From: Candidatus Poribacteria bacterium
Lineage (GTDB): Bacteria; Poribacteria; WGA-4E; WGA-3G
Length of the DNA: 64,000 nt
NCBI GenBank assembly: GCA_964291315.2
Contig: OZ219753.1
Location: forward strand, 2,144,001 to 2,208,000
Direction of reading: 5' to 3'
Positions 43,527 through 61,608 of the stretch are shown in pieces (position 1 is the first letter of the stretch; every line of letters begins with the position of its first letter). Made by a program: the position numbers and the translations under genes. The notes below the pieces were generated by a model that saw nothing but the letters and a program-made list of their open reading frames with translations, ran no database searches and had not been told where the DNA came from.

Positions 43527-43541
43527 AGTGCTCTGCTTCTC

Positions 43542-46649: not shown

Positions 46650-46691
46650 GCAGCACACTGTCTGATTCCAGCTGAAGGAGCTACATTCTCT

Positions 46692-47528: not shown

Positions 47529-47570
47529 CACATATTACCACAGGCTGCTAGGCGATCTGTTCAATCTGAT

Positions 47571-47599
47571 TTGAAACCCGAAAAAAGATGGTGTATAAT
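47571..47599 (+). promoter_or_regulatory. Sigma70-type promoter with no clear gene immediately downstream
   Basis: TTGAAA-17 bp-TATAAT. Confidence 0.45.
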
Positions 47600-48203: not shown

Positions 48204-48231
48204 ACGTCCTGAGTAAGACGTAAAACTGCTC
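48204..48231 (+). ncRNA. Small H-type pseudoknot motif, copy 1 (just before the RBS)
   Basis: ACGUC-CUGAGUAA-GACGU-AAAAC-UGCUC; loop GAGUA can pair with UGCUC. Confidence 0.55.
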
Positions 48232-48249
48232 ATTTTAAGGAGAAATATC

Positions 48250-48888
48250 ATGAAAACCGCATTAGTATTGGTGGCCATAAGCACCACTCTCATAAGCACT
48301 GGATGCTTCGACAACAACGGGTGTAACAACCTACTGATTGAAGCAATGAAAACACAGGACAGGCAGACGGCTGCGGACAAAGCACATGACCTCATAGAGG
48401 ACACCGTCTGCTATAAGGAAATCAAGGACGGTATGGAAGCCATAGGGCAGCCTGAATCCGAATGCCCTATAGGGCTAAAGAACTTCGATATAACCCCCTA
48501 CATATACAGAGGAAGCGAACAGGGCAGAGTACCTGTCAAACTGATAGATGGTAACATAGAACGCATAGGGAGTTCTAGTAATATCAAACCTGCATTCTCA
48601 ATATACGACGGTGCTGGAGCATATATCCCTGCCAAGTACCGGTACTGGTCTTACCAGGGTAAACGCTGGGACGACGACCTATCTATGTGGAAAGTGATGT
48701 GGAAACTAAAAGTAGGTGAGTGCAAAGGCAGGGAGGTCAAGGAAGCTCACGAGGTACGGCAGAGACTTGCCAACGGGAGCATCAGAAACCCTAATCCTAC
48801 TCGCACAACCTCTACTAGCACCACCACTAATAAAGAGGAGGACAAACCTGACCTAATAGAAGGGACAGAAGTTCCCCCTTCACAATAA
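48250..48888 (+). CDS. Orphan lipoprotein of unknown function
   Basis: RBS aaggag; lipobox-like ISTGC; ATA/AGA/AGG-rich codon use unlike its neighbours. Confidence 0.7.
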   Translation: MKTALVLVAISTTLISTGCFDNNGCNNLLIEAMKTQDRQTAADKAHDLIEDTVCYKEIKDGMEAIGQPESECPIGLKNFDITPYIYRGSEQGRVPVKLIDGNIERIGSSSNIKPAFSIYDGAGAYIPAKYRYWSYQGKRWDDDLSMWKVMWKLKVGECKGREVKEAHEVRQRLANGSIRNPNPTRTTSTSTTTNKEEDKPDLIEGTEVPPSQ

Positions 48889-48893
48889 ACGCT

Positions 48894-48921
48894 ATGACCT
48901 GCGCACGTCATAAAACTGCTC
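48894..48921 (+). ncRNA. Small pseudoknot motif, copy 2 (just after the stop codon)
   Basis: AUGAC-CUGCGCAC-GUCAU-AAAAC-UGCUC; stem 1 differs from copy 1 but still pairs fully. Confidence 0.5.
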
Positions 48922-48971
48922 ATACCTTATGAATAAAAGCGGGTGAAGATGAACAGATGTCATTTTTTAAG

Positions 48972-48999
48972 TTGACACATTTCTCTTTTCAATTATAAT
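48972..48999 (+). promoter_or_regulatory. Sigma70-type promoter for the tubulin/ZorAB gene run
   Basis: TTGACA-16 bp-TATAAT. Confidence 0.6.
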
Positions 49000-49010
49000 T
49001 AACTATAATT

Positions 49011-49166
49011 AACGTGAGTTTGATAATTATTTGGTTCATCTTTGGATAAAGAGAGCCCTTGCACAGTTTAATAGGTTGTCTGAGAAACACCAAAGTGGCA
49101 CAGGAAACTAACAGCATATGATATAGGAACTGAAGACGCACAGGAAACCAACAGCATATGCTACAA
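49011..49166 (+). repeat. ~155-bp diverged direct repeat with degenerate REP units (partner 59509-59662)
   Basis: aacgYgagtttgataattatttggYtcatctttggataaag...gaactgaagacgcacagg...acagc.tatgctacaa in both copies. Confidence 0.8.
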
Positions 49167-49339
49167 CTTACCGAACAGGCATATCAGTATAAGAGGAGTA
49201 TTTTATCGAGTCTACGTTGGTGATTTTGGAGTCAGGTGTACGGTATATTTCTCCAAGTAATCGAAACGTTGAAATAGCTCGGTAACATCGAATCAACAAA
49301 GCACCGGGGCGTTATACGTTGGTTCGGTACTTTTAAAGT

Positions 49340-50767
49340 ATGGAAACAAAAGAAATAAAGTGGGAAAATAATCTCTTACTATTATCCATCTATCTATGCT
49401 GCTCTATTTTTCTCACAAGCTGCGATACCGGAAAAGAGCTAGGTGTTCCAGAGTTTGAACCTGACACATCTGATTTAACGCCTGGCGATATATCCGACAA
49501 GCTTGTTGCGCGCATCTATTTCGACGCGACACTCTCAATGCAAGGTTTTGTGGTCCCGGCTCCAACGGATTACACCCGAATCTGTCAAGATTTAGACAGT
49601 GTTGTCTTAAGCAGTTGGAAAGGCGGACGATCAGAATTTTTTTGGTTTGGTGAAAAGGTTGAAAGTATTGATAGGTCCACCTACTTGCAAGCAGTATCTG
49701 CAGAATTTTACGAAAATAAACATATCTACAGAAAAACGTTTATTGAAAAAATTATTGCCCATGAAACTCGGCTGACCAACGATCAGGCAGGCATCAGTAG
49801 TGATTCTGAAGAATCAGCAGAGATAGCGGCAAGTAAAACTCCTGAAGCGTTAACAGAGGTGGCCACATCCACGGAAAACGTTGATGAGCGTGAAAAAGAA
49901 AACTCATTGGTTATTATTCTGACAGACCTTTTTCAAGATCAAGGCGATATAGCACTGCTGGTTCGACTACTCAAAGAAAAATATATTCAAAAGGGGCTTG
50001 AAGTGGGATTATTCGGTCTGCGCAGCCAATTTGACGGCACAGTCTACAACATCGGTATAGGTCAGAAACCACTCCCTCATCGCAGTAATCCGAATGACCC
50101 GGATACGTTTCGTCCCTTCTACCTTCTTGTGTTAGGCAGGCACGCCGATATTGCCCACTTTTTTACGAAATTAAAATCAAAGAACCCGGAAGCAAAAACG
50201 ATACTCTTTTCTCGGTATCTGGTTAGTCCCTTACTGTCGTTTGCCAACGCTGAAATATCAAAGAAGGGTAATTTAAATGAAAATACTTTCCATCCTATTG
50301 CAGATCCGAGCTTGAAACAGTATGAAATCGTGAAAAATGCTTATCGCGCTACAATCCCTGCTGAATTGACATACACCCCGTTGCCACATGCCATGTCCTT
50401 TGATCCCCAGAGGCTTGAGCCTGCTATTAAAGCGAAAGACAATTCGACTGGACAAACTAAAGAGAATTCAGGTGCTGCGAAGTGTCTGAAAGTGGAATCA
50501 GAGCTAACTAAAGAGAAACTCATGGTTGATTTTACTCTGGAATCCAGCAAACTGGAAAGCGCTATCTACCTTTATGAAGTGACGCTACACCCCAAAATTG
50601 AGGCATATCGGGAACCGGAGTGGTGTTCGGCTTGGGATATGGGATCGGGACGTGACGGTTCAAAAACACTTAATTTAGTTAATTTCGTTCAGGCTCTTTC
50701 ACAAGTAACAGTTCGAACACATCACCCTAAAATCGCCACATTTCACTTCTACGTCAAAAAAAGGTAA
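49340..50767 (+). CDS. Putative lipoprotein with vWA-like (MIDAS) domain
   Basis: Lipobox-like FLTSC; RIYFDATLSMQGF (DxSxS variant) and IILTDLFQ match vWA MIDAS positions; RPFYLLVLG. Confidence 0.65.
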   Translation: METKEIKWENNLLLLSIYLCCSIFLTSCDTGKELGVPEFEPDTSDLTPGDISDKLVARIYFDATLSMQGFVVPAPTDYTRICQDLDSVVLSSWKGGRSEFFWFGEKVESIDRSTYLQAVSAEFYENKHIYRKTFIEKIIAHETRLTNDQAGISSDSEESAEIAASKTPEALTEVATSTENVDEREKENSLVIILTDLFQDQGDIALLVRLLKEKYIQKGLEVGLFGLRSQFDGTVYNIGIGQKPLPHRSNPNDPDTFRPFYLLVLGRHADIAHFFTKLKSKNPEAKTILFSRYLVSPLLSFANAEISKKGNLNENTFHPIADPSLKQYEIVKNAYRATIPAELTYTPLPHAMSFDPQRLEPAIKAKDNSTGQTKENSGAAKCLKVESELTKEKLMVDFTLESSKLESAIYLYEVTLHPKIEAYREPEWCSAWDMGSGRDGSKTLNLVNFVQALSQVTVRTHHPKIATFHFYVKKR

Positions 50768-50783
50768 CGGAGTCACTATTGAA

Positions 50784-51266
50784 ATGAAACATGTTGGTCT
50801 TATCTGTGGTATCTTAGTTATTATCGGTTTATTTTTCCTTCTTGTTATATTAGGTGAAGTGCTTATTTTCGAGGCTTATCCACCGCAATTACCTGACACG
50901 GGCACAACGGAACAGCAACAACAGCAGTGGATGTGGATAGCGAGTTTTGAATCTTGGGCGAGGGTCTGTGTTGCGATTGCGGGAGCGGCAAGTCTTTTAT
51001 GGTATGGATTGGCACAATGGACTTTTAAAATTCGTAACGAAGGGAAAGGGTCTGAAAAACGCGTCGTTTGGGGTTTGTTGTTTCTTTTCCCAATTGTCGC
51101 CGGTATTGTAAGTTGTATCCTTGTTGACAGAGCTGAAAAAATGTGGATAGCATATCTGTTTTTCATCTTAAATGGTTTGATACCTTACTATCTTGCCACC
51201 CTACTATTTTCACCAGCGTCCTTTAAGTACATACCATGGGGTGCAAAACAGATTCGTCGTTGGTAA
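50784..51266 (+). CDS. Small four-TM membrane protein
   Basis: Four hydrophobic helices, C-terminal LFSPASFKYIP; tightly spaced within the gene run. Confidence 0.8.
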   Translation: MKHVGLICGILVIIGLFFLLVILGEVLIFEAYPPQLPDTGTTEQQQQQWMWIASFESWARVCVAIAGAASLLWYGLAQWTFKIRNEGKGSEKRVVWGLLFLFPIVAGIVSCILVDRAEKMWIAYLFFILNGLIPYYLATLLFSPASFKYIPWGAKQIRRW

Positions 51267-51290
51267 ACGTTTTTTATAGGAGGTAAATAA

Positions 51291-52721
51291 ATGGCATATT
51301 ATGCGATCGGTATTGGCGGGACAGGGGCAAAATGCCTTGAATCCCTGATTCATCTGGCAGCAGCAGGAATGATGCCAGATGACAAAGAGCTTTACACACT
51401 TTTTGTTGATCCTGATACTTCAAATGGAAGCCGTGCGCGGGTTGAGAAAACACTGGTTAATTATGTGAAATGCAAAGATCAACTTCAACTCGGAAACACA
51501 AACTTTTTGAAGACAAAAGTTATTCCTGCTAATCCTGTCCTTTGGACACCTTTTAAAAGTGCTAATCCAAGCTTAGAGGATTTCTTTCACAGTCCAATTT
51601 TTAAAGGTTCATCCGCAGCTAAGTTATTCGACGTGTTATATAGCAAATCAGAACAAGATATGCCCTTGGAAGACGGTTTTCGTGGTCACCCCTCCATTGG
51701 CTCAGCGGTCATGGCAAAGACAGTAGATTTGAAAGGAGACAAAACGTGGAGTTGGTTTAGTAAAGTAATTTCTAATGATCCAGAATCTAAAGTGTTCTTA
51801 GCAGGTTCTATTTTCGGCGGCACAGGCGCTTCTGGATTCCCTACGATCGCGCAGATCCTTAAAAATAATTTACCAGGTGTAACGCTCGGAGGGGCATTGA
51901 TTCTTCCGTACTTTAAGTTTGAGGATGCAGATGATGGGAAACTCAAAGCAAGATCTGCCGAGTTTTTGATGAATACACAAACCGCTTTGAAGCATTACCA
52001 TCTATCGAATAAAACAGGTTCTTATGATGCGGTCTACCTATTTGGCAATGAATCTCGAACGAATGTGGGAAACGCTCTCGGCGGTGGGCAGCAGGAGAAT
52101 GCTCCACATTTCATTGAACTCTATGCAGCCTTAGCAGCAATCGATTTTTTTGGTAAGAAACCAGATCAATCAGATGGCAAGGGCGGAACTCAATATTTCA
52201 TGACAGCCCGCAAAAAAGTTAACGCTCTTGACTGGAGCGATCTGCCAGATGGTAACAACGGTGATACAGTTCGTTCAAAAATCTTGCAACTGGAACATCT
52301 TGCTTTTGCGTATCTTAGCGTCTATCATCCCACAATTCTAGATATTAACAAAAACATAAAAGCGGCATACTGTGCTCCATGGTATGTCGATTTCTTTGAA
52401 CGACGTAAGGTCGGCATCGACGATACATTACTCAGCACCGTCGGTGAATACTGTAAAGATTTTTTGCTATGGATCGCCAACATACAAGGAAATTGTGGTG
52501 TCGGAGAAAAAATTAATCTCATTAAAAATAGGTATGGAGCGTACTCCAAGAAACAAAATGGTAGTCTTGTTCTCAAAAAATCCAAAGATTTTTCAGAATC
52601 TGACTGGTTGAACAAACTTTGGGAACGTATGTGTAATAGTCGGAGAAAAAACGGATATTCACAAGGCGTTGGAAAGTTTCTACATGCCTTATACCACAAT
52701 TGTCCTGATAAACATAACTAA
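51291..52721 (+). CDS. Tubulin/FtsZ-like GTPase (FtsZ-like 2 / Tubulin_2 type)
   Basis: N-terminal AIGIGGTG, VDPD.SNG, GFRGHPSIG, tubulin signature variant SIFGGTGASGFP, LILPYF, QENAPHFIEL. Confidence 0.88.
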   Translation: MAYYAIGIGGTGAKCLESLIHLAAAGMMPDDKELYTLFVDPDTSNGSRARVEKTLVNYVKCKDQLQLGNTNFLKTKVIPANPVLWTPFKSANPSLEDFFHSPIFKGSSAAKLFDVLYSKSEQDMPLEDGFRGHPSIGSAVMAKTVDLKGDKTWSWFSKVISNDPESKVFLAGSIFGGTGASGFPTIAQILKNNLPGVTLGGALILPYFKFEDADDGKLKARSAEFLMNTQTALKHYHLSNKTGSYDAVYLFGNESRTNVGNALGGGQQENAPHFIELYAALAAIDFFGKKPDQSDGKGGTQYFMTARKKVNALDWSDLPDGNNGDTVRSKILQLEHLAFAYLSVYHPTILDINKNIKAAYCAPWYVDFFERRKVGIDDTLLSTVGEYCKDFLLWIANIQGNCGVGEKINLIKNRYGAYSKKQNGSLVLKKSKDFSESDWLNKLWERMCNSRRKNGYSQGVGKFLHALYHNCPDKHN

Positions 52722-52744
52722 TTAATTGGTTAGGAGGTTATATA

Positions 52745-55700
52745 ATGCCAAAACCACTTCTTCCTAGTTTGATACCAGGTAACAAGGTTACCGCTTTTGG
52801 TAACGCTGGAAAATGGGTTCCAAGAAACGCTTCTGAACTTAAACTCATTAGCGATGGGCTTAACGTTGCAAAACAGGGAGTGACCCCAACTGAGGTTGAT
52901 AGCATTCCGAGTATGTGGGCACGCCCTCTACTGTTCCAAATGGCGCTGTATGATGACAAACATCCAGTGCATACGCAAGTTTTAGGCGAATGGCGTGGAC
53001 TTTTAGCGATGTTGGCACTGAAAGAGTGGAGCGAGTTCCCCATAACTACAGAGCAAGTTGAGATTGATGTTGCCAAGAATCCAGAAGCAGCTGCGGATTT
53101 TCTTCGGGCCCTAGCGAAATTGCGACCAACAGACACGTTATCTGATCTGAGCTTACCAGATCCGGCGACATGGGAAGTCCTTAATATCATCCTGTTTGAT
53201 GGAGAGCCTATTGGTATTGCCTCACCAACTACTTTGGTGTGTACCTCAGTTAACTGTTTCGGTCGGATCTCGGACGTTCCCTGGTTTGACAATCGAAGAT
53301 TCCTCGTCGATCCAGTTCGGAAATTGAACGTTTCCGAGAAAGAAGCAGTTAAGTATTGGCTAACAACTCTTCAGGAAGGCACTGCAAAGCTTCCTATTCT
53401 TGACATAACAGTTAGCCTTAACAAACTTCTACTCAATTTTATAAATCAGTTAAATGTACCTTTAAAGGTGTTCGACTTTTCTATTACTAAACTCGGTTTG
53501 ACTCAAGACCTTTTTAAGTATATGAATCAACCGGTGGTAGCCCCCAAGGGGTCTAAATCGAGTATAAAACTTGTTCATTCCAAAAACAAAAAGTCAAAGG
53601 AAAATCTCCTCGTTTTCGATAAGGACATTCATAAAGCTTGGAGAGTCGAACCGCAAAATGTAATTGTTTGGAAAGGGAAGACACTTGCAACAAGTCAAAA
53701 TTCCAGTGGGACGCCCGAACTGGTACTTCCAGAAGATGTTGAGCTGCAAACTCCACAAGATTTTTTCATAGACAAACTTTTTGTCATCAAGCAAAAAAAA
53801 GCCTTCCATAAGGGCAGTACTTTAGCCTCTAAAGGCAGTAGGAATATTAATTTTAACGGAAGCCCGGTCACACCAATTCTACCGCTCACTACGAAATTGC
53901 TAACCTATCTTGATGTAGAAGATTTAAATGATAGAATTACTTTTAACCAGCTGAATGACCGTATTGTTGTGGAGTTGCGTCTCACTTTGAACGGTATCGA
54001 TGGGAAGGGGAATTCAGATTTTGTTATTTCTAAAGAATATGACAAAGCAAACGTTAGGACCATTGCGACCGCACCAGTTTTGGCGGTTTGGCCGAACTTC
54101 AGAACTCAAGGTTGGAAGGCTTACTATACCTATTTCACAACAGCCGATCAAGACGCATTTTACGCCAAACCCCTCCCGGCAGCAAAAGAGTCGGATACGC
54201 TGCCTGATCCGCTAACGTTTCAAGATAATAGCGGAAATGTTAAGAAAGAGACTACAAAAACGGAACATTTTCCTGAAGCGATGCTATGTGAATATAAAGG
54301 GGCTAAGGCGGGAATTTTGCTCATTTCAGCACCAGAAGCCTTAAATGCTAATACTAATAAGGCTAATACTAATAAAGAAACAATATGGACCGTAGGGGTA
54401 GATTTCGGCAGCAGCAGCACTACAGTCTATAGGTATAGCAACGCTGATAATGAGCCTCAGAGCGTAACTTTTGATAAGAAACACATTTTACGTATTACCG
54501 ACCCTCTTACTTCCTCAAAAATCGCATTCTATAAGGATTTTCTCTCTCATGAAAGCAAATCGACACCGTTCTTCAGCCTCTTTCAAACACTCCAAACTGT
54601 AAAACCCGATGAACCCCTCCTTGATGGACATATCTACTTTCCTGATAATCATAATGATATTTCTTCTGATAAACGCATTGTTAGCGATCTCAAATGGTCT
54701 AGTACAATAAACCGGAGGCACATTCAGGTTTTTCTCAAACAACTCTGTCTTCAAACCGCCGCTGAGGCTGTTAACGATGGGGCCCAAAAGATAGATTGGA
54801 ATTTTTCTCATCCGCTTGCCTTTACAAGACAGGATAAAGGACAATTTGAACTGATTTGGAAAAGCGTCGGAGCAGCTTGTGGGAGCGCGACTGGCGTGAA
54901 TCAAAAGGTTGTGACCCCGGCCCAATCAGAAAGTGTGGTCACCGCAAAATTCTTTGCAAGCACCTTACAAAATCCAACAGCTATTGGCGATTTTACCAGC
55001 GGGGCAGTCTGCATCGATATTGGAGGAGAAACCTCAGATATCTCAATTTGGCAAAACAATAAACTGTACTGGCAAACGTCTATCAAATTTGCAGGACGGC
55101 ATATTTTTTTAAATCTGCTCAAAGAAAATCCCGAATTTCTGAAAGAACTTGGTGTGAACGAGAACGGGATCAAATTGTTAAAAGAAATCAAGGACGACAA
55201 GTTTTATGCTCAAGCGGACGCTTTAATTGAAACGGAAGGTCAAGATTGGTTGAGCGAACTCCCTAACGTAGAGAACCCATCCATTATCCAACCGTTTCTT
55301 CAACTCATTTCACTTGGGGTTTCCGGTCTTTTATACTATGTCGGGCTACTTCTCACTTACCTTTCTAAAGTCAAACCTGAATCTGATCTTAAGTCTGAAA
55401 TCCCCAGTATATACATCGGCGGTAACGGATCAAACATTCTACATTGGATGGCAGATGGCAGTTTCGATCCTGACAACTCTACAGCGCAAGATTGTAGAAA
55501 GTACCTTAAAAAGGTCATCTGCAAAGCATCAGGATTTGCCCCAGATGATAATAATCGCGATATAGAGATTAGTCACTCCCCAAAAAAGGAGGCTGCTTAT
55601 GGATTAGTCATTGACATTGACGAAACAGAACTCGATTTTGATCCAGATACTCAATTTGACGTTTTAGCTGGTGAAACTTTTACAGAGAATGGAATAGAGT

Positions 55701-56026
55701 ATCCATGGACTGAAGTTCTTACTGCCGAACGACTACATAACCGCTTATCGATTCCTAAGAGGTTCGACAAAATTCAACACTTTATAGACAGTTTCAACCA
55801 AAATTTAGGTGAAGGGATTAAGAAAGTATCCCTGAAGGAAACTGTAAGTGGCAAAGAAGGCGACTCCGCTACTGTTAGCGATGCTATGTTTGCAGAGCTG
55901 GAAAAAGTTTTCCAAGCTTTTAGTAATAGGGACCCAGGAAAAATCTCTATTGAACCGTTATTTATTCTCGCGTTAAAAGAATTACTGAGAGCAAAAACAA
56001 GACGATGGATAAACATGGATGGATAA
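52745..56026 (+). CDS. Large protein with C-terminal actin/Hsp70/FtsA-fold ATPase domain
   Basis: Phosphate-1 VGVDFGSSSTTV, connect SESVVTA, phosphate-2 CIDIGGETSDISI, adenosine YIGGNGS, PKKEAAYGL; ~540-aa N-terminal region (SIPSMWAR, EWRGLLA, SPTTL) of unknown fold. Confidence 0.82.
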   Translation: MPKPLLPSLIPGNKVTAFGNAGKWVPRNASELKLISDGLNVAKQGVTPTEVDSIPSMWARPLLFQMALYDDKHPVHTQVLGEWRGLLAMLALKEWSEFPITTEQVEIDVAKNPEAAADFLRALAKLRPTDTLSDLSLPDPATWEVLNIILFDGEPIGIASPTTLVCTSVNCFGRISDVPWFDNRRFLVDPVRKLNVSEKEAVKYWLTTLQEGTAKLPILDITVSLNKLLLNFINQLNVPLKVFDFSITKLGLTQDLFKYMNQPVVAPKGSKSSIKLVHSKNKKSKENLLVFDKDIHKAWRVEPQNVIVWKGKTLATSQNSSGTPELVLPEDVELQTPQDFFIDKLFVIKQKKAFHKGSTLASKGSRNINFNGSPVTPILPLTTKLLTYLDVEDLNDRITFNQLNDRIVVELRLTLNGIDGKGNSDFVISKEYDKANVRTIATAPVLAVWPNFRTQGWKAYYTYFTTADQDAFYAKPLPAAKESDTLPDPLTFQDNSGNVKKETTKTEHFPEAMLCEYKGAKAGILLISAPEALNANTNKANTNKETIWTVGVDFGSSSTTVYRYSNADNEPQSVTFDKKHILRITDPLTSSKIAFYKDFLSHESKSTPFFSLFQTLQTVKPDEPLLDGHIYFPDNHNDISSDKRIVSDLKWSSTINRRHIQVFLKQLCLQTAAEAVNDGAQKIDWNFSHPLAFTRQDKGQFELIWKSVGAACGSATGVNQKVVTPAQSESVVTAKFFASTLQNPTAIGDFTSGAVCIDIGGETSDISIWQNNKLYWQTSIKFAGRHIFLNLLKENPEFLKELGVNENGIKLLKEIKDDKFYAQADALIETEGQDWLSELPNVENPSIIQPFLQLISLGVSGLLYYVGLLLTYLSKVKPESDLKSEIPSIYIGGNGSNILHWMADGSFDPDNSTAQDCRKYLKKVICKASGFAPDDNNRDIEISHSPKKEAAYGLVIDIDETELDFDPDTQFDVLAGETFTENGIEYPWTEVLTAERLHNRLSIPKRFDKIQHFIDSFNQNLGEGIKKVSLKETVSGKEGDSATVSDAMFAELEKVFQAFSNRDPGKISIEPLFILALKELLRAKTRRWINMDG

Positions 56027-56083
56027 ACCAGCTTGTATTTTCGAACAGGGGCATAACATAGCATATATGTTTTAAGGGGACTC

Positions 56084-57220
56084 ATGGAACAACTTAAAGA
56101 TCTGCTAAACTTAACCACAGCGATCGCACCAATTCTCGCTATTTTAGTAGTTGCGATCATTGGTTGTTCGGCTTTTTATTTTTTAAGGAATCGGCAAGAA
56201 ACTGCTAACGAAGCTAAAAAAGTCGGCAACCCTAACAGTGGAGAGAAGCCTGAAATTGTAGTTTTCCTACGGCCGCATGCTGCATGTGTTCAATGCCTGA
56301 TGCTTTGTATAGAGAACATAGGGACTAGGACAGCCTATAATGTCCAGTTTGGACCCTTAGCTTCCGCCCCGTTTATCAGGTCTTCTAATATCGGCAATGT
56401 AAAGATTTTTAAGGAAAACGATTTTCTTCGGAGGGGAATCAGCTGTTTTGGCGCTGGACAGAAGATCGAGCTATTCCTAATCCGTTTAGTAGGCGACTTC
56501 CCTGAAGAACTGAAACAACCTCTTGAAATCTCTGTTACTTACAAGGATTCGCTGAACTACACGTACAAGAATGGGTATAAACTGGACTTTAGCGAATTTG
56601 AAAGCCTTGTAGAAATCGAGTCAATAAAAGAACAGACGATATCTGACTTGAGATCTCTGCTTCACGTAATACAGAAAAACTTTAGTCAAGTTGATGAAAG
56701 TATTGAACCTCCCAGGACACCCCAAACCTCGAAATCTAAGGATAGTGAAATTCCGCACGAAGAAGAGGAAGAATGCCGCCAAATCGACCACAATGGGCAA
56801 GCCAACTTATTAACACCAGAGCTTCAGCAACTCGTTGAGTTATACAATGCAAGTGATGATGCCACATTACGGCAAAATCATAAGCACCAAGTTTCAATTA
56901 GCGTTAGTAATGATGTAGAACTTTTCAACAATCCAGATAAAGAAGCACTTTTCCAAACTAAGCCAAATGGCAGCTTGGTTGCCTACAACATTGATTCAGA
57001 AAATTCATATGCGGTTGTACCATTTTTGGGTTGCGTTCTGCAAAATGATCTCTATAATTCTGGTGCTTTCCGTCAGGTTTTTAAGTGCCCTAATTTTGAT
57101 TCAAAACGCAAGTATCATATGAAAGTTATTCGCCCCGCCATGTTTACACTGGATCCTGTAAACGAGAAATGGACACTTCAAGAAATGGGAGAATTAGAAT
57201 TAACGGTACACGACAATTGA
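56084..57220 (+). CDS. Membrane-anchored hypothetical protein
   Basis: N-terminal TM, beta-rich domain (IENIGTRTAYNVQF), acidic linker, C-terminal globular domain. Confidence 0.75.
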   Translation: MEQLKDLLNLTTAIAPILAILVVAIIGCSAFYFLRNRQETANEAKKVGNPNSGEKPEIVVFLRPHAACVQCLMLCIENIGTRTAYNVQFGPLASAPFIRSSNIGNVKIFKENDFLRRGISCFGAGQKIELFLIRLVGDFPEELKQPLEISVTYKDSLNYTYKNGYKLDFSEFESLVEIESIKEQTISDLRSLLHVIQKNFSQVDESIEPPRTPQTSKSKDSEIPHEEEEECRQIDHNGQANLLTPELQQLVELYNASDDATLRQNHKHQVSISVSNDVELFNNPDKEALFQTKPNGSLVAYNIDSENSYAVVPFLGCVLQNDLYNSGAFRQVFKCPNFDSKRKYHMKVIRPAMFTLDPVNEKWTLQEMGELELTVHDN

Positions 57221-57362
57221 TCGAAAAAAGATATCTGCCTACGAAAACGCAGGAGCACATAGCACAAATAACACCTGTTTTAAAAATCTGTATCACATTA
57301 GCTGTAGCATCCATCCAAAACCGGGCGCATTGTGTGTGATGCCTTAAATCAATAAAACGCTT

Positions 57363-59474
57363 ATGCCTTTCGAATATTTCTCTCCCACAAACGCTTTTGC
57401 TTCAGGAATTGTAACCTTCTTGCAATATTTCTTTGTGTTTTGGTTTGTAGGATTAGTAGGTTATGGGATCCGGTTGCTCCAAACAAGCAAACACATCGAA
57501 AAAAAGCAGAATATCCAGCGACTCGTCGATGCTCGACGAAAACGGAATGTTGGACGCGAAGATAACGACGTGGAAACCGATGCTGATACGGTGTTCCACG
57601 AATTTTTAAATGAACAATCTCTCAACAAAAGTTCTCCTATAACAAGACATCTCAAAGCGATTTTCTTAGCTGGCTGGGAGGAGAGTCGTCTTGAAGTCAG
57701 TGAATTAATTAATCACACCACTTCCGATCTGTTTAGGTGGAACAGTCTGTTTCGTTCTGTATTGGCGGTTTTCATCGTGATCGGATTGCTCGGCACGCTC
57801 TTTGGACTTACGGATAGTTTAACAGAACTATCTCCGGCTTTAAGAGAGAGTACCGCAGACACGGCCGCGACAGAAAACAGCCAAAGAATGACCCAGGCGT
57901 TAGGCGATCTCATGGATGACATCAAAGGGGCTTTTGCCCCAAGCATTTGGGGGATTATTTTTACGATCGTCGGCGTGCTTCTTTACGGATTTTACCTTCA
58001 AATCGCTTGCCATCCTGTTAAGACTACTCTGGAGCGGTTGACGTTGACCGTTTGGGTTCCGCAGCTCTACCCAACAACTTCCCAAAAACTTATCCAAACC
58101 CTGCAGCAGAGCGAGTCTCAGATGCAAAAGGGGTTTGAGACCGCAGCACAGTTCAGTGAATCTGTCAAAAAAGTCCATGGCAACATAGATGAATTCAATG
58201 CAAATCTCACGCAAGCTGCATCTATTACACAACCGCTCTCCAATTCGGTGACGCAAATTAACAAGGCGGCATTGGACATTAGTACTGCAGCGGATGTGCT
58301 GAATACAGGTTTTACGGAGAACCTTGACAAATTTTTAAGAGAATTTGCAGCTAGTGTTGCCCATCTCGCCGGTTTTCAAGATGAGATTCGGAACCTCCAC
58401 CAACAATTTCAAGACTCAGCGAACCAAAAATTAGACCAGCAAACACAAAAATTGGAGGAACAGAATCAAAATCTTACTACAAACTTAGATGTCTTGAAAA
58501 ATTACAAGGAACTGTACGTTGATTCCTGTCAACAAATGGAGAAGACCCTTCAAGAGTTTCTTAATAACACTATCGAAGCAAACACCCATATAGAAGCTAC
58601 CAATCGTGAGTTCCTTGAAGGCATAAATGCGGCCAATCGCGAATGGCTTGCAGAAATACAAGTGCAGTTGAAGGCAGATCTTGCAATTATGGAACCAACC
58701 TTGAAAAAGGAGTTAGAAACGCTGACCGTGCAATTAACTACGGATCTCAAAGAGGTTCAAGGCACTCTCGACCAAAGGTTGGAAGCACTTACCAACCAAT
58801 TAAATTTTTTCCAATTACCTATTGAAAAAGCTGCCGATCATATTGAAAGGATTATCGAAAGTTTTGCTCGGATAATGGAGGGAATAGTTAGAGATCTACA
58901 ATCACAGTTCCAAAAGCAGAGCGAAGAAATAAAAGAACAAAATGAAAGTTATGGGGAGCAGCTTACGGGAGTCAAACATCTCAATGAAAGTGTTGTAGGC
59001 TTGTTGAAACAATTAGACGAAAGCAGTAAAAATCAGAAAGGTGCAGTTAATACACTAAACGGTCATGTGGGCGGACTAACCACAGACATTAAAACCCTCC
59101 ATGTTGCAATCAACGCCTTTACATCTGATTCAGGAGAACTCAGTCAATCGATCGGGGCGATTAAAGGGGATATCGAAAAGTTAGGCACGGCTTCACAGCA
59201 ATTCGTGGAAAAGGTGGAAAAAGCCGATGTTACCCCGTTGACAGCTAATATTGGAAAACTCAATGCCGCTATCAACGAGATTTCTGGACATTCACAAGTT
59301 TTAGCAAACGCTGTTAATGGATTGGCGAAACAAATAAATTCACCGGACAGGGATTCTTCTAACCTAACGCAACAAAAGATTCCCTTCCTAGAAAGAATAC
59401 GAATTCTATTTCGCGGAAGATCGACTTCAACACAACCCCGTGCTAAACCCGAATCGAAGAAACAACGTAAGTAA
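57363..59474 (+). CDS. ZorA-like protein: MotA/TolQ/ExbB ion-channel domain plus ~480-aa helical tail
   Basis: TM1 near the N-terminus, TM2 FIVIGLLGTLFGL, TM3 AFAPSIWGIIFTI, then long heptad-rich sequence to the C-terminus. Confidence 0.85.
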   Translation: MPFEYFSPTNAFASGIVTFLQYFFVFWFVGLVGYGIRLLQTSKHIEKKQNIQRLVDARRKRNVGREDNDVETDADTVFHEFLNEQSLNKSSPITRHLKAIFLAGWEESRLEVSELINHTTSDLFRWNSLFRSVLAVFIVIGLLGTLFGLTDSLTELSPALRESTADTAATENSQRMTQALGDLMDDIKGAFAPSIWGIIFTIVGVLLYGFYLQIACHPVKTTLERLTLTVWVPQLYPTTSQKLIQTLQQSESQMQKGFETAAQFSESVKKVHGNIDEFNANLTQAASITQPLSNSVTQINKAALDISTAADVLNTGFTENLDKFLREFAASVAHLAGFQDEIRNLHQQFQDSANQKLDQQTQKLEEQNQNLTTNLDVLKNYKELYVDSCQQMEKTLQEFLNNTIEANTHIEATNREFLEGINAANREWLAEIQVQLKADLAIMEPTLKKELETLTVQLTTDLKEVQGTLDQRLEALTNQLNFFQLPIEKAADHIERIIESFARIMEGIVRDLQSQFQKQSEEIKEQNESYGEQLTGVKHLNESVVGLLKQLDESSKNQKGAVNTLNGHVGGLTTDIKTLHVAINAFTSDSGELSQSIGAIKGDIEKLGTASQQFVEKVEKADVTPLTANIGKLNAAINEISGHSQVLANAVNGLAKQINSPDRDSSNLTQQKIPFLERIRILFRGRSTSTQPRAKPESKKQRK

Positions 59475-59508
59475 ATCGATTAAAAGCAATTTCATAAGTC
59501 CTTAAAAT

Positions 59509-59662
59509 AACGCGAGTTTGATAATTATTTGGCTCATCTTTGGATAAAGCGGATCCTTGGAGAGCCTGACAGGTTGTGTGAGAAGCGACGAAGAGGCACA
59601 AGAAATCCAACAGACTATGCTACAAGAACTGAAGACGCACAGGCTGACAGCCTATGCTACAA
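59509..59662 (+). repeat. Second copy of ~155-bp repeat with REP-like units, between the zorA-like and zorB-like genes
   Basis: Matches 49011-49166; contains gcacaggctgacagcctatgctac, the reverse complement of a GTAG-start palindrome. Confidence 0.8.
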
Positions 59663-59745
59663 GGGCATGGCACAGACTGAGAGGTTATACTATAAAGGTA
59701 CTCCTCTAATTTTTTTTCAACTTACGTTAAAATAGAAGGATATCC

Positions 59746-60480
59746 ATGGAAGAAAATACATTAGATTTTAATTTTTGGCCCTCCTTTTCGGACCTAATGC
59801 TGACGCTTGTGCTGATATTGATTATCGTTGTTTTTGCTGTTATCGTGGCTTTTTCTGTTAAACCGGTCGATCCTTCCTCCGAAGGGACGGTCGATCTGAC
59901 AGAAGTTGAACAGAGGCAAATCGGAATGATCCATGCAATCGCTGAACAGTACAATGTTGATCCTGAAGAAGTAGGCGACGGTTCCTTTGTGATTCGAATT
60001 TACCTCGAAGATGGCGGTTACACCGAAATTCTCATTCAAAATGAACCTACACTTCAACGTTATAGCTTTAGCGACCGCATTCTGTTTGAGCCCGATGAAC
60101 ACTATCTTAACGAAGATGGAAAAGAGACACTTCTCACCGTTGGTCTTCAAATAAAAAGAAATCTGAACGACATCCGTGAGATACAGATTCAAGGTCATGC
60201 GGATCCTGATCCGCCTGCCTTTGTGCCCTCTAACTTACATCTGGCAGCATTACGGGCAATTGAGGTATACACATTTCTACAGGAACAAGTCCGCATAGAT
60301 CCCGCGCGGCATCTGATGTCAGCAACCTCTTTTGGTGAATATAAACCTGTTCGCCGCTCAGATCAGGATAGAACCTATACGCCCGAAAAACTTGAAAGGG
60401 ATAACCGCACTAGGACGTTGAAAGCCCAGAATCGTCGGATAGAAATTTTGCTGTTTTATCCGCCCGAGCAAACAGACTAA
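59746..60480 (+). CDS. ZorB/MotB-like protein with OmpA-type peptidoglycan-binding domain
   Basis: FWPSFSDLMLTLVLILIIV (conserved channel Asp in TM), ILFEPDE, IQIQGHAD, NLHLAALRAIEV, SFGEYKPV, NRRIEI. Confidence 0.9.
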   Translation: MEENTLDFNFWPSFSDLMLTLVLILIIVVFAVIVAFSVKPVDPSSEGTVDLTEVEQRQIGMIHAIAEQYNVDPEEVGDGSFVIRIYLEDGGYTEILIQNEPTLQRYSFSDRILFEPDEHYLNEDGKETLLTVGLQIKRNLNDIREIQIQGHADPDPPAFVPSNLHLAALRAIEVYTFLQEQVRIDPARHLMSATSFGEYKPVRRSDQDRTYTPEKLERDNRTRTLKAQNRRIEILLFYPPEQTD

Positions 60481-61442
60481 TGGATGGAGAGTTGATTATG
60501 TATCGTATTAGATTGCTTGTTGCCTTGTTCTTGGTCAATTTCGTTATCACTGCCAACAGCACCGCAAGCGATGCTCTTAGCGGCGTTCGGATCGTAGAGG
60601 GGATTGTCCAGCAGCGCCCTCCGAACACGCGACGCACCCTCGGGAAACGATATGTCTGGAATTTCAAGGGAAAATCTTATACCGCACTAATGACAATAGA
60701 TATAGAAAAGTATAATAGCTACGATGGAAAAGAACGTTACGACATTCCGCGCTTGGTAGAAGAGGGGAGAAAGACCATCGGAAATCTCACTCGTGAATTT
60801 CGAAACATGTTCAAACGGCATCGCGCGTGGTCGAAGCGCGATCATATCGACTTTGTTCTCAGCTTCGTCCAATCCCTGCCTTATACCCACGATAACGTGA
60901 CCACAGGTTACGATGAGTTTCGGCGCTATGCGGTTGAAACTTTGATTGAGGGTGGTGGAGATTGTGAAGACACCACTATCTTGGTTGCGGCGATCCTACG
61001 AGGTTTAGGTGAGAAGACGGTACTCATTTTCATGCCAGGGCACATCGCCCTCGGAGTGAGTGGTAATTTCGCGGGTGCCTCTGTTACCTATGATGGTACG
61101 AAGTACTATTACTGTGAAACAACTGGCACCGGCTGGACAGTAGGCGACCTGCCACCATCCTTTCAGACAACTGTGACTAACATTTTCCCGTTAGCTCCCT
61201 CGAAAATAGGAAGCACACCGAGGCCGGGCCGCGTGACAACTCCAGAACCCACGTCTCCGTCGCAACCTTCCTCAATAGAAACTACGATGCCTGAAGCCTC
61301 TTCATCTGAAGTCGAATCCGAAGGCACACAATCAAACGGCAGACTCGTCACCGCGATCGTTATGTTCTTTATCCTCATCGGTTTGGGAATTTCTACTGTA
61401 TATTTCCTGCGCCGCTCTATTAAAGAACAACGTGAATATTAA
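60480..61442 (+). CDS. Secreted transglutaminase-like cysteine protease with C-terminal membrane anchor
   Basis: Signal peptide, FVQSLPY, ETLIEGGGDCEDTTIL (catalytic Cys), GHIALGV (His), YYYCETT, Pro/Ser/Thr linker, C-terminal TM. The start may be ATG 60498. Confidence 0.82.
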   Translation: MDGELIMYRIRLLVALFLVNFVITANSTASDALSGVRIVEGIVQQRPPNTRRTLGKRYVWNFKGKSYTALMTIDIEKYNSYDGKERYDIPRLVEEGRKTIGNLTREFRNMFKRHRAWSKRDHIDFVLSFVQSLPYTHDNVTTGYDEFRRYAVETLIEGGGDCEDTTILVAAILRGLGEKTVLIFMPGHIALGVSGNFAGASVTYDGTKYYYCETTGTGWTVGDLPPSFQTTVTNIFPLAPSKIGSTPRPGRVTTPEPTSPSQPSSIETTMPEASSSEVESEGTQSNGRLVTAIVMFFILIGLGISTVYFLRRSIKEQREY

Positions 61443-61608
61443 CAAAACGCCAAACTTCGAAGCATGAAGCCTCGTTTGATTCTGAAGCCCTCGGACAACA
61501 TATCAGCATACTCCGAAATAATTAATGAAAATTCACACAATTTGCAACAAACCTAACAAAATAACGTTCTTTTCTATAGCTATGAAATGATCGGATCTAC
61601 ATACACAC

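What the first reader, a model, noticed from the sequence alone, without database searches (positions are those of the whole stretch)
49340..61442. Zorya-type ion motor in one gene run with a tubulin-like GTPase and an actin/Hsp70-fold ATPase: candidate undescribed defence or envelope-remodelling system
Seen: eight co-oriented genes behind one sigma70 promoter, most of the stretch visibly AT-richer than the flanks: vWA-like lipoprotein, 4-TM protein, tubulin/FtsZ-like GTPase, 1093-aa actin-fold ATPase, TM-anchored protein, MotA-like channel with long tail, MotB/OmpA protein, transglutaminase-like protease. Known: MotA/MotB-type pairs are ion-driven rotary units, and the long-tailed form is ZorA/ZorB of Zorya anti-phage systems. 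As I recall, divergent FtsZ-like families next to vWA and FtsA/Hsp70-like genes were noted by comparative genomics, but without a demonstrated function. Inference: an envelope-anchored sensor-motor recruits or drives polymerising NTPases in place of the usual Zorya nuclease/helicase effectors.
Basis: partly seen in the sequence, partly recalled or inferred. Interest (0 to 1): 0.93.

Follow-up and report, generated by a model that had tools for sequence, protein, structure and literature searches.

The report
Mobile tubulin–actin NTPase cassette with Zorya-like motor
This is a horizontally mobile eight-gene cassette whose conserved heart is a tubulin-like GTPase predicted to be bound to a giant actin-fold ATPase, here joined to a Zorya-like ion motor; nobody has tested what it does, and it may be a new kind of bacterial defence or envelope machine.

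Summary
The eight co-oriented genes are real. Most domain calls hold: tubulin/FtsZ-like GTPase, actin/MreB-fold ATPase, long-tailed ZorA-like channel, MotB/ZorB-like anchor, LapG-like protease. The vWA call for gene 1 stays inconclusive.

The Zorya-like pair is not the core. In 83 loci from other genomes and metagenomes the conserved unit is lipoprotein, 4-TM protein, tubulin-like g3 and 1,093-aa g4. g4 follows g3 in 65 of 69 loci with room. ZorAB-like genes occur in 9 of 30 decidable loci, always after one g5 gene.

g3 and the g4 N-terminus are predicted to bind: ipSAE 0.81, best control 0.00. Seven database proteins fuse g3 to g4.

The family is large, with 1,883 representative clusters, and patchy, in 25 of 176 genomes of the phylum. 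It lies on cyanobacterial plasmids and integrative elements, and here in a variable chromosomal hotspot.

Function is untested. I favour a conflict/defence system without a nuclease (about 0.4) over an envelope-remodelling machine (about 0.3). Neighbourhoods of divergent FtsZ-like genes with vWA and OmpA genes were published in 2010. I found no description of the g3-g4 complex or its coupling to a ZorAB-like motor.

The parts
48972..48999 (+). sigma-70 consensus promoter-like site (TTGACA, 16 nt, TATAAT) upstream of g1
   Evidence: 12 of 12 matches. Consensus match only.
49007..49144 (+). copy of a dispersed host repeat in the 5' leader of g1
   Evidence: About 80% identical to 59505-59643. 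42 matches in the window's genome. No Rfam match.
49340..50767 (+). g1: predicted lipoprotein of 475 aa, possibly with a vWA-like domain carrying a MIDAS-like D62-x-T-x-S66-M motif
   Evidence: Invariant C28, D62, M67, G69 in 44 homologues. No Pfam or PDB hit. hhalign against VWA_2: E 0.0084, probability 4.7%. Present in 56 of 61 loci with room.
50784..51266 (+). g2: small membrane protein of 160 aa with four hydrophobic segments
   Evidence: Read from the sequence. Present in 73 of 78 loci with room. No Pfam hit.
51291..52721 (+). g3: divergent tubulin/FtsZ-superfamily GTPase of 476 aa, Pfam Tubulin_2 type
   Evidence: Tubulin_2 27.9 bits (cut-off 27), and 41 of 43 members hit it. Invariant G9, G10, G12 and S173, F175, G176, G179. 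1,883 representative clusters at E<=1e-3. Predicted to bind g4.
52745..56026 (+). g4: 1,093-aa protein with a family-specific N-terminal domain (about 1-540) and a C-terminal actin/MreB/Hsp70-fold ATPase (about 545-1093)
   Evidence: The profile hits MreB 8azg at E 7.9e-10, with VGVDFGTS and CIDIGGGTSDIS aligned. 17 of 41 members hit MreB_Mbl and 17 of 41 hit FtsA. Follows g3 in 65 of 69 loci with room. Fused to g3 in 7 database proteins.
56084..57220 (+). g5: N-terminally membrane-anchored protein of 378 aa in which only the C-terminal ~80 aa is conserved across the family
   Evidence: Invariant P313 and G369; near-invariant F333, P351, A352, W363. No PDB hit. One to four tandem copies in other loci, and exactly one before ZorA in all 9 ZorAB loci.
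57363..59474 (+). g6: ZorA-like MotA/ExbB-family channel subunit with a C-terminal helical tail of about 480 aa
   Evidence: MotA_ExbB 23.3 bits (cut-off 22.9), PADLOC ZorA1 4.4e-11. PDB profile hits: 8vvn_C 9.7e-5, ZorA 8qyd_A 2e-3. Invariant T145 and S194 in the TM helices. NCBIfam ZorA_2 29.8 bits against a cut-off of 100.
59505..59643 (+). second copy of the dispersed host repeat, filling the g6-g7 gap
59746..60480 (+). g7: ZorB/MotB-like subunit with a TM helix carrying invariant Asp16 and an OmpA-type peptidoglycan-binding domain
   Evidence: OmpA 1.5e-9, PADLOC ZorB1 4.4e-15. Invariant D16 in FNFWPSFSDLML and invariant NRRIE. PDB profile hits: MotB 6ysf 6.3e-14, 8vvn_B 1.4e-10, ZorB 8qyd_F 2.2e-7.
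60480..61442 (+). g8: predicted periplasmic LapG-like (transglutaminase-like) cysteine protease with a C-terminal TM anchor
   Evidence: The profile hits 4fgo at E 6e-5 across GGGDCED. NCBIfam LapG 1.5e-3, far below its cut-off. Found only in the 3 closest loci.
47531..61515 (.). whole variable insert between conserved flanks (an SDR gene on the left, a NosD-like gene on the right)
   Evidence: The flanks 44721-47530 and 61516-63867 are conserved at 78-83% DNA identity in same-genus genomes that carry other cargo between them.

Best explanation
The region is an accessory, horizontally mobile cassette built from two layers.

Layer 1 is a widespread four-gene core: an extracytoplasmic lipoprotein (g1), a small 4-TM protein (g2), a divergent tubulin/FtsZ-fold GTPase (g3), and a giant protein (g4). 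The N-terminal domain of g4 clamps onto g3, and its C-terminal half is an actin/MreB/Hsp70-fold ATPase. Together g3 and g4 would form one two-nucleotide machine at the inner face of the membrane.

Layer 2 is present in about a third of relatives. It consists of one membrane-anchored g5 adaptor plus a ZorAB-like 5:2-type ion-driven unit. That unit is anchored to peptidoglycan by g7 and carries a long g6 tail, about 480 aa and roughly 70 nm if it is one continuous helix. The Poribacteria-like clade adds a LapG-like periplasmic protease (g8).

I propose that it works as a conflict (anti-phage or anti-mobile-element) system. The envelope parts (g1, g7, g8) would register a disturbance of the cell wall or membrane. 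The ZorAB-like motor would turn ion flow into movement of its tail, as shown for Zorya. The signal would then switch the g3-g4 complex, through g5, into an active or assembled state that arrests or remodels the infected cell, in place of the nucleases of known Zorya types.

Shown here: the gene content, the conserved order, the mobility, the intact nucleotide-binding motifs, and the g3-g4 fusions. Predicted by a model: that g3 binds g4. Inferred: the signalling order, the role of g5, and the defence function.
For: Cassette unity:
- The same eight genes occur in the same order in two same-genus genomes with unrelated flanks, at 27-75% protein identity, and in L016.

Core conservation:
- g4 is present in 65 of 69 loci with room, g2 in 73 of 78, and g1 in 56 of 61.
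- g3 and g4 are found together in 10 of 12 IMG/VR loci.

g3-g4 complex:
- ipSAE is 0.82, 0.81 and 0.81 in three runs, and the best of 3 controls scores 0.00. The runs agree in at least 87% of contacts, and the partner's pLDDT is at least 77. The tool's mark was reached by 58 of 80 solved complexes and by 2 of 110 mismatched pairs.
- Seven predicted proteins carry g3 fused to g4. Most are only 22-31% identical to each other.

Likely active sites:
- g3 keeps invariant T1-like and T4-like glycine motifs.
- g4 keeps invariant D553, G555, D758 and G893.
- g7 keeps invariant Asp16, the counterpart of the essential ZorB Asp26 (PMC11946911, passages).

ZorAB link:
- ZorAB is present in 9 of 30 decidable loci and is clustered on the g3 tree: 4 changes against 8.7 in shuffles, reached by 1 of 500 shuffles.
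- The identity matrices of g3 and g4 correlate with those of g6 and g7 (Spearman 0.63-0.86). The pairs are not independent, so the p-values overstate.

Accessory and mobile character:
- 25 of 176 genomes of the phylum carry the family, and some carry two copies.
- It lies on five cyanobacterial plasmids.
- It lies on IMG/VR contigs with integrases and relaxases.
- Here it sits in a variable hotspot where relatives carry Pnkp-Hen1 RNA-repair genes.
- The downstream modules vary: Hsp70 with TPR proteins, trypsin-like peptidases, TerD, DO-GTPase2.
Against: - There is no experimental evidence of any function.
- No nuclease, helicase or other known effector domain is present. PADLOC finds nothing in g1-g5 or g8.
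- The window's flanks are not defence genes: lectin-like, CBM9, DUF6785, SDR, NosD-like and glycosyltransferase.
- Of 150 ORFs within about 1.7 kb of the cassette in 61 loci, only a handful hit PADLOC models. The top hit, RT-Protease_XI in 4 members, may reflect a protease domain (not checked). No background rate was measured.
- ZorAB is missing from 21 of 30 decidable loci, so the core must be able to work without it.
- g6 fails NCBIfam's curated ZorA cut-offs.
- The complex prediction is a model's confidence, made with my own alignments. The fused proteins could in principle be gene-calling artefacts.
- Co-transcription is not shown.
Confidence: 0.4

Rival explanations
1. It is a non-immune envelope or membrane-remodelling machine, the reading Makarova & Koonin gave for FtsZ-like-1 operons. 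The g3-g4 NTPase complex would shape or move membrane or cell-wall structures such as vesicles, surface layers or cell-cell contacts. g1, g2 and g5 would be its envelope parts, and the ZorAB-like unit an optional power source, as MotAB-type units are for gliding or Tol-Pal.
For: - All components other than g3 and g4 are membrane or periplasmic proteins.
- Downstream genes in one clade are envelope enzymes: a GH3 glycosidase, trypsin-like peptidases and CAP-associated proteins.
- g8 resembles a periplasmic protease.
- No defence context was found in this window.
- PMC2875224 (sections read) proposes membrane remodelling for FtsZ-like genes linked to vWA and OmpA genes.
- The organism's relatives are labelled Candidatus Poribacteria. 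I recall these as sponge symbionts, for which surface remodelling would matter.
Against: - The distribution is patchy and strain-level: 10 of 64 other genomes in the genus.
- Carriage on plasmids and integrative elements, unrelated insertion sites and 27-75% identity within one genus are more typical of conflict systems than of housekeeping envelope functions.
Confidence: 0.3
2. It serves the mobile element that carries it, for example segregation, positioning or transfer, in the way TubZ (tubulin-like) and ParM (actin-like) partition plasmids.
For: - It is found on five cyanobacterial plasmids and on integrative or mobilisable elements.
- Tubulin-like and actin-like NTPases are the known motors of type III and type II plasmid partition (established knowledge; titles seen in the listing).
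Against: - The Gloeothece plasmid has its own ParA/ParB.
- No DNA-binding adaptor or centromere-like repeats were seen beside the cassette.
- In the window it is chromosomal, with no integrase or relaxase nearby.
- A lipoprotein, TM proteins and a peptidoglycan-anchored motor are not features of partition systems.
Confidence: 0.1
3. These are two unrelated neighbours. The ZorAB-like pair, with g5 and g8, would be a separate or degenerate Zorya-type module that merely sits next to the tubulin-actin core, with no functional coupling.
For: - The largest intergenic gaps fall at g5-g6 (142 nt) and g6-g7 (271 nt).
- The core occurs without ZorAB in 21 of 30 decidable loci.
- Promoter-like matches exist inside the cassette.
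Against: - ZorAB follows the core in the same order in 9 loci that span deep branches of the g3 tree.
- Its divergence tracks that of g3 and g4.
- No ZorC, D, E, F or G-like gene accompanies it.
- The 271-nt gap is explained by an inserted host repeat. In L016 the g7 ORF overlaps the end of g6.
Confidence: 0.1

Closest known systems
Zorya anti-phage systems, types I-III (ZorAB plus ZorCD, ZorE or ZorFG)
   Same: - g6 has a MotA/ExbB-type membrane domain followed by a helical tail of about 480 aa.
- g7 has the conserved TM aspartate and an OmpA-type peptidoglycan-binding domain.
- PADLOC's best hits for both are ZorA and ZorB models.
- The profiles hit the solved ZorA and ZorB chains of 8qyd and the long-tailed pair of 8vvn.
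- Invariant T145 and S194 in g6 recall the ZorA Thr147/Ser184 filter (PMC11946911).
   Different: - No ZorC, D, E, F or G and no nuclease or helicase domain.
- g6 scores 29.8 bits against NCBIfam ZorA_2's cut-off of 100, and g7 scores 17.2 against ZorB1's 400.
- The partner genes are a tubulin-fold and an actin-fold NTPase.
- The ZorAB-like pair is optional in this family.
FtsZ-like 1 (FtsZl1, Pfam Tubulin_2) operons of Makarova & Koonin 2010 (PMC2875224; sections read, supplements closed)
   Same: - A divergent FtsZ/tubulin GTPase that coexists with ordinary FtsZ.
- Linked to a (possibly) vWA protein, OmpA-family proteins and uncharacterised membrane proteins.
- Patchy distribution that includes cyanobacteria.
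- g3 passes Pfam Tubulin_2 at its cut-off.
   Different: - Typical FtsZl1 proteins are about 1,000 aa with a long coiled coil and a helical C-terminal domain. g3 is 476 aa.
- No P-loop GTPase or kinase is present in the window.
- The sections I read do not mention an actin-fold partner or a MotA-type channel.
- Their unnamed families A1-A2 and B1-B9 (Additional file 6, not viewable) might include g2, g4 or g5.
DO-GTPase-centred conflict systems with tubulin or HSP70 components (Kaur, Burroughs, Iyer & Aravind 2020, PMC7159879; passages and one section read)
   Same: - Mobile neighbourhoods that combine tubulin-domain proteins, vWA proteins, HSP70-family proteins and TM components, and are proposed to act by NTP-dependent assembly.
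- In relatives of this cassette, 6 of 89 downstream ORFs are Hsp70 and 2 of 89 hit DO-GTPase2.
   Different: - The defining DO-GTPase and GAP1 proteins are absent from the window.
- Those systems are described as nearly absent from cyanobacteria, whereas this family lies on cyanobacterial plasmids.
- Tubulin and HSP70 appear there as alternative themes, not as one bound pair.
FtsZ-FtsA, the tubulin-like polymer tethered by an actin-like protein in cell division
   Same: A tubulin-fold GTPase paired with an actin-fold ATPase at the membrane. g4 gets weak FtsA hits.
   Different: - g4 binds g3 through a large family-specific N-terminal domain with about 260 predicted contacts, not through a short C-terminal peptide.
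- The two are fused in some lineages.
- The cassette is accessory, not essential.
SrfB ('virulence factor SrfB', Pfam PF07520), a lead only
   Same: - Similar size, about 1,000 aa.
- It is the second-nearest named cluster for a g4 homologue in the ESM Atlas, at 0.89.
- 2 of 89 downstream ORFs in related loci hit SrfB.
   Different: - 0 of 41 g4-family members hit PF07520 at E<=0.01.
- An Atlas score below 0.9 is only a lead.
- SrfB has no tested function that I know of (recalled).

Membership tests
Zorya system | ZorA: MotA/ExbB-type channel subunit with a long cytoplasmic helical tail | tested here: met
   MotA_ExbB 23.3 bits (cut-off 22.9) at residues 106-211, followed by about 480 aa that match coiled-coil models. 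PADLOC ZorA1 4.4e-11. PDB 8vvn_C 9.7e-5 and 8qyd_A 2e-3.
Zorya system | Score above the curated ZorA/ZorB family cut-offs (NCBIfam) | tested here: not met
   ZorA_2 29.8 bits against 100, ZorA_4 19.1 against 500, ZorB1 17.2 against 400.
Zorya system | ZorB: TM helix with the essential aspartate plus a peptidoglycan-binding domain | tested here: met
   Invariant D16 and the GHAD...NRRIE OmpA-type motifs in 10 sequences. ZorB 8qyd_F 2.2e-7.
Zorya system | Type-defining soluble effectors (ZorC/ZorD, ZorE, or ZorF/ZorG) | tested here: not met
   No PADLOC or Pfam hit of that kind in any of the eight proteins.
Zorya system | Protects against phage | not testable with these tools
   Needs an experiment.
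Tubulin/FtsZ superfamily (Pfam Tubulin_2) | Pfam gathering score and the glycine-rich T1 and T4 nucleotide-binding loops | tested here: met
   27.9 bits against 27 for the window protein. 41 of 43 relatives hit Tubulin_2 and 23 of 43 hit Tubulin. Invariant G9, G10, G12 and S173, F175, G176, G179. Assigning these to the T1 and T4 loops is my reading.
Tubulin/FtsZ superfamily (Pfam Tubulin_2) | T7 catalytic loop, C-terminal activation domain and filament formation | tested here: inconclusive
   The PDB profile search matches only around the T4 loop (CetZ 3zid, E 0.49).
FtsZl1 as typified by Makarova & Koonin | [quoted passage not shown] | tested here: not met
   g3 is 476 aa and the family members listed are about 480-540 aa. 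Description taken from PMC2875224.
FtsZl1 as typified by Makarova & Koonin | Operon with vWA and, in several genomes, OmpA-family proteins | tested here: inconclusive
   An OmpA-domain protein, g7, is present. vWA for g1 is unconfirmed.
DO-GTPase conflict systems | DO-GTPase plus GAP1 proteins | tested here: not met
   No such Pfam hit in the eight window proteins. Only 2 of 89 downstream ORFs in other loci hit DO-GTPase2.
Actin/Hsp70/sugar-kinase (ASKHA) fold ATPases | Phosphate-1, phosphate-2 and adenosine motifs in order | tested here: met
   MreB 8azg at E 7.9e-10, with two stretches aligned at profile positions 546-588 and 745-794. Invariant D553, G555, D758 and G893.
von Willebrand A domain | Rossmann-like fold with a MIDAS motif (DxSxS ... 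T ... D) | tested here: inconclusive
   Motifs align in register, but hhalign gives probability 4.7%, E 0.0084. 0 of 44 members hit a vWA Pfam model.
Bacterial transglutaminase-like cysteine proteinases (LapG type) | Catalytic Cys-His core | tested here: inconclusive
   4fgo at E 6e-5 over 51 residues, including the Cys of GGGDCED. A His follows in PGHIA (read). NCBIfam LapG 17.7 bits against a cut-off of 320.

The most novel reading that the evidence does not exclude
A tubulin-fold GTPase and an actin-fold ATPase form an obligate heterocomplex, in some lineages a single 1,650-aa polypeptide. This complex would be the effector of a widespread, undescribed class of envelope-tethered prokaryotic machines. 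In the lineage seen here it would be triggered by a Zorya-like ion-driven motor, in effect a fourth kind of Zorya that stops infection by nucleotide-driven assembly or envelope remodelling rather than by cutting DNA.
Probability: 0.3. Interest if true: 0.92.

Novelty: new variant of a known kind. Interest (0 to 1): 0.78.

Why it matters
Tubulin-like and actin-like proteins are the two cytomotive filament families. A conserved system in which one member of each forms a single complex would be a new way of using both folds, and the two are sometimes fused. The family is large, with 1,883 representative clusters, and nobody has tested it.

If the Zorya-like pair really signals to this complex, that would show that ZorAB-type motors are general envelope-to-cytoplasm transducers that can be coupled to non-nuclease outputs.

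The core also lies on plasmids of cultured Picosynechococcus and Gloeothece strains. I recall Picosynechococcus as genetically tractable, so the question looks directly testable.

Tried and rejected
What led nowhere:
- Single-sequence PDB searches gave nothing useful for g3 (0 hits) or g4 (chance MHC matches).
- The PDB profile of the g1 family gave only chance hits. The g5 family did the same.
- g3 was not found in the INPHARED phage records.
- SrfB (PF07520) was not found in the window's genome. The tool's 14 control genomes also gave nothing, so that search was uninformative.
- Rfam found no family in 47000-62500 at E<=0.1. No tRNA gene lies at the island borders.
- The genome-contig scan with the single g3 protein returned only one locus. 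The metagenome scan with the alignment did the real work.
- No RNA holder was listed among public runs, so I did not use read laying and nothing can be said about expression.

Literature searches:
- None returned a paper that pairs a tubulin-like protein with ZorAB or with a giant actin-fold partner.
- PMC13069673 mentions neither Zorya nor tubulin.
- PMC12505986 does not mention tubulin.
- The search covers only the held library. The supplements of PMC2875224 (Additional files 5 and 6) and of PMC7159879 could not be viewed and may list these gene families.

Readings I considered and rejected:
- The 271-nt g6-g7 gap marks a broken gene. Rejected because it is a host repeat insertion.
- g3 belongs to FtsZl2. 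I think this unlikely, because the paper describes that family as proteobacterial and without conserved neighbours. I did not test it directly.

The tree is the quick tree. The careful search did not finish in time. It holds only the 30 loci where ZorAB presence could be decided, plus the window; the other 53 loci were left out.

Full report
**Observation.** GC content falls to 0.40-0.44 across about 48000-60000, against 0.47-0.53 to the left and 0.46-0.50 to the right. A perfect sigma-70 consensus lies at 48972-48999, which is a pattern match only. Gaps between genes are 16-57 nt for g1 to g5, 142 nt for g5-g6 and 271 nt for g6-g7, and g7 and g8 overlap by one base. The 271-nt gap holds a copy (59505-59643) of a repeat that also lies in the g1 leader (49007-49144, about 80% identity). 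That repeat has 42 matches in the window's genome and no Rfam match. The gap is therefore a host repeat insertion, not a break in the cassette.

**What each gene is.**
- **g3** passes Pfam Tubulin_2 at its cut-off (27.9 against 27 bits). Of 43 aligned relatives, 41 hit Tubulin_2 and 23 hit Tubulin. The glycine motifs G9-G10-x-G12 and S173-x-F175-G176...G179 are invariant. I read these as the T1 and T4 loops. A PDB profile search reaches only CetZ 3zid at E 0.49, around that second motif, so the fold beyond the nucleotide-binding core is unverified.
- **g4** is two things. Its first 540 or so residues match nothing. Its C-terminal half matches MreB at E 7.9e-10, with phosphate-1 and phosphate-2 aligned in order. 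17 of 41 relatives hit MreB_Mbl and 17 of 41 hit FtsA.
- **g6** has a MotA_ExbB domain (23.3 against 22.9 bits) followed by about 480 residues that match only coiled-coil families. PADLOC's best hits are ZorA models (4.4e-11). Its family profile hits the 696-aa MotA/TolQ/ExbB chain 8vvn_C (9.7e-5) and ZorA 8qyd_A (2e-3). It fails NCBIfam's curated ZorA cut-offs.
- **g7** has an invariant Asp16 in its TM helix and an OmpA-type domain. It hits MotB (6.3e-14), 8vvn_B (1.4e-10) and ZorB 8qyd_F (2.2e-7).
- **g8** hits chain 4fgo at E 6e-5 across GGGDCED. I recall 4fgo as LapG.
- **g1** has an invariant Cys28 after a hydrophobic stretch, which is lipoprotein-like, and conserved D62-x-T-x-S66-M and T195-D196. 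It has no Pfam hit (0 of 44 members for any vWA model) and no PDB hit. A profile-profile comparison with nine VWA_2 domains from the same genome gives only E 0.0084, probability 4.7%, though the motifs align in register. vWA remains a reasonable guess.
- **g2** is a 160-aa protein with four hydrophobic segments.
- **g5** has an N-terminal TM helix. Across 40 relatives only its last 80 or so residues are conserved.

**The conserved unit is not the Zorya pair.** The g3 family is large: 1,883 representative clusters at E<=1e-3 and 500 at E<=1e-30. A metagenome scan confirmed 507 loci, of which the best 80 were kept. I called ORFs in those 80 loci plus a Clostridia MAG locus and two same-genus loci, and searched them iteratively with the eight window proteins.
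- g4 follows g3 in 65 of 69 loci with at least 600 nt of room.
- g2 precedes g3 in 73 of 78 loci with room.
- g1 is present in 56 of 61 loci with room, and is inverted in some.
- A g5-family gene follows g4 in 33 of 43 loci with room, in one to four tandem copies.
- ZorA-like plus ZorB-like genes are present in 9 of the 30 loci where this can be decided, always directly after exactly one g5.
- g8 occurs only in the three closest loci.

Elsewhere the genes after g4 differ. In the loci I scanned gene by gene, g4 is followed by a true Hsp70 and TPR proteins (L069), or by a GH3 glycosidase, a trypsin-like peptidase and a CAP-associated protein (L021). Among 89 downstream ORFs, 6 hit HSP70, 4 Trypsin_2, 2 TerD, 2 DO-GTPase2 and 2 SrfB.

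On a quick g3 tree (the careful search did not finish) the ZorAB label needs 4 changes, against 8.7 in shuffles, and sits on several deep branches. Pairwise identities of g6 and g7 track those of g3 and g4 (Spearman 0.63-0.86; the pairs are not independent). The association therefore looks old, with losses or replacements, rather than a recent chance neighbourhood.

**g3 and g4 look like one machine.** A complex prediction of full g3 with g4 residues 1-520, each given as a family alignment, scored ipSAE 0.82, 0.81 and 0.81. The best of three controls scored 0.00. There were about 260 contacts, the runs agreed in at least 87% of contacts, and the partner's pLDDT was at least 77. The tool's mark was reached by 58 of 80 solved complexes and 2 of 110 mismatched pairs, and the tool says those counts hold only roughly with my own alignments.

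The interface uses g4 residues 2-66 and 103-172. These include the near-invariant L6, P7, G22, W24, S53 and R60 and the invariant P55 and W58. On g3 it uses segments that include 174-185, the glycine-rich loop region, and the invariant P206-Y207. The g4 N-terminal domain may therefore sit on the nucleotide face of g3, which in filaments is covered by the next subunit. That last point is my inference, and I could not check it without a structure.

Independently, seven predicted proteins in the public collections carry g3 followed in the same polypeptide by g4. Four are 1,648-1,664 aa and three are shorter, probably cut by contig ends. Most pairs among them are only 22-31% identical. Such fusions are the classic sign of a physical partnership, although gene-calling artefacts cannot be fully excluded.

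**Mobility.**
- The flanking genes of the window are not found next to the cassette in any other locus.
- In same-genus genomes the left flank (44721-47530) and the right flank (61516-63867) are conserved at 78-83% DNA identity. They enclose 6.5 kb (G158) or 11.6 kb (G007) of different cargo, including Pnkp-Hen1 RNA-repair genes and a Cu/Zn superoxide dismutase.
- The cassette therefore occupies a variable hotspot, 47531-61515.
- In the phylum, 25 of 176 genomes have the g3 family, 10 of 64 other genomes in the genus have it, and some genomes have two copies.
- The core lies on plasmids of Gloeothece verrucosa PCC 7822, of three Picosynechococcus strains and of Synechococcus sp. NIES-970. There NCBI calls g3 a 'tubulin-like domain-containing protein' or hypothetical, and everything else I looked at is hypothetical or carries a generic domain label.
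- Twelve IMG/VR contigs carry distant g3 genes, ten of them with g4. Their flanks hold integrases, relaxases, methylases, TerD and one terminase, so they look mostly like integrative mobilisable elements.
- None of 50,697 phage records has g3.

**Is it defence?** The case rests on indirect signs: the accessory, mobile and patchy distribution, the variable downstream modules, the hotspot location and the ZorAB-like pair. Against it, the window's neighbours are ordinary genes. Only a few of 150 flanking ORFs in 61 loci hit PADLOC models at E<=1e-5, and I had no background rate for comparison. No known effector domain is present.

**Mechanism proposed.** Zorya's published mechanism is a peptidoglycan-anchored ZorA5B2 proton motor whose tail of about 70 nm passes a phage-invasion signal to the soluble effectors (PMC11946911, abstract and passages; PMC11890865, passages). 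I propose the same logic here, with the g3-g4 complex as the output and g5 as the membrane adaptor. g1 and g8 would act on the periplasmic side. Only the parts list and the g3-g4 link have evidence; the order of events is inferred. Because most relatives lack ZorAB, the core must have another input in those loci, perhaps through g1 and g2.

**Comparison with what is known.**
- Makarova & Koonin (PMC2875224; sections 4-6 read) described FtsZ-like 1 genes with vWA, GTPase, kinase and OmpA neighbours, plus unnamed associated families, and proposed membrane remodelling. Their typical protein is about 1,000 aa with a coiled coil, unlike g3.
- Kaur et al. (PMC7159879; passages and section 27 read) described DO-GTPase conflict systems in which tubulin-with-vWA and HSP70 appear as separate themes, and which are nearly absent from cyanobacteria.
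- Santana-Molina et al. (PMC9871819; passages read) set the Tubulin_2 proteins aside as divergent.
- None of the text I could read describes a short tubulin-like protein bound to a giant actin-fold protein, or its linkage to a ZorA-like channel. The supplements were closed, and the searches cover only the held library.

Noticed in passing
window 49007-49144, 59505-59643, and partly 47623-47641: A dispersed intergenic repeat of about 60-170 nt with internal ACAG..TATGCTACAA sub-repeats. It has 42 matches across the window's genome and no Rfam family. Two copies sit inside the cassette, one directly after the consensus promoter.
   Followed up: partly
window 47531-61515; L112 (G007) and L113 (G158): The site between the SDR gene and the NosD-like gene is a variable hotspot. 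Same-genus genomes carry a Pnkp-Hen1 RNA-repair pair, a Cu/Zn superoxide dismutase, an acetoacetate-decarboxylase-like gene and a DUF4407 protein there instead of the cassette.
   Followed up: partly
window 47870-47958: An 88-nt stretch about 80% identical to DNA in the hotspot cargo of two relatives. In G007 it falls within the coordinates of a 490-aa ORF (5100-6572). It is probably a remnant of what the cassette replaced.
   Followed up: partly
L004/L005/L007 (G009:C201:66149-67654): The g3 orthologue in one same-genus genome carries an in-frame TAG. It could be a pseudogene, a sequencing error or a read-through.
   Followed up: no
L012 15957-17758 against L013 10772-12574: Two nearly identical metagenome loci differ in that the ZorA-like gene is split into two ORFs in one and intact in the other. 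L009 also has it in two pieces.
   Followed up: no
window 44721-46649: The DUF6785/DUF6784 membrane protein belongs to a heavily expanded paralogue family: 16 matches in this genome and 18-27 in its congeners at E<=1e-100.
   Followed up: no
window 39834-44604: A run of secreted-looking Laminin_G_3 (concanavalin-like) and CBM9 proteins lies upstream of the island.
   Followed up: no
L104 17685-20287 and L105 17616-19536 (IMG/VR loci): In the distant clade borne on mobile elements, g4 is followed by an ORF of 680-880 aa and three or four tandem ORFs of about 200 aa. TerD hits were tallied in that set (2 of 63 ORFs), so these may be TerD arrays.
   Followed up: no
L025, L031, L032 (metagenome loci): A small group of loci has g2 and g3 but no detectable g1 or g4 despite up to 10 kb of room downstream. 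This may be a reduced or rearranged form of the core.
   Followed up: no
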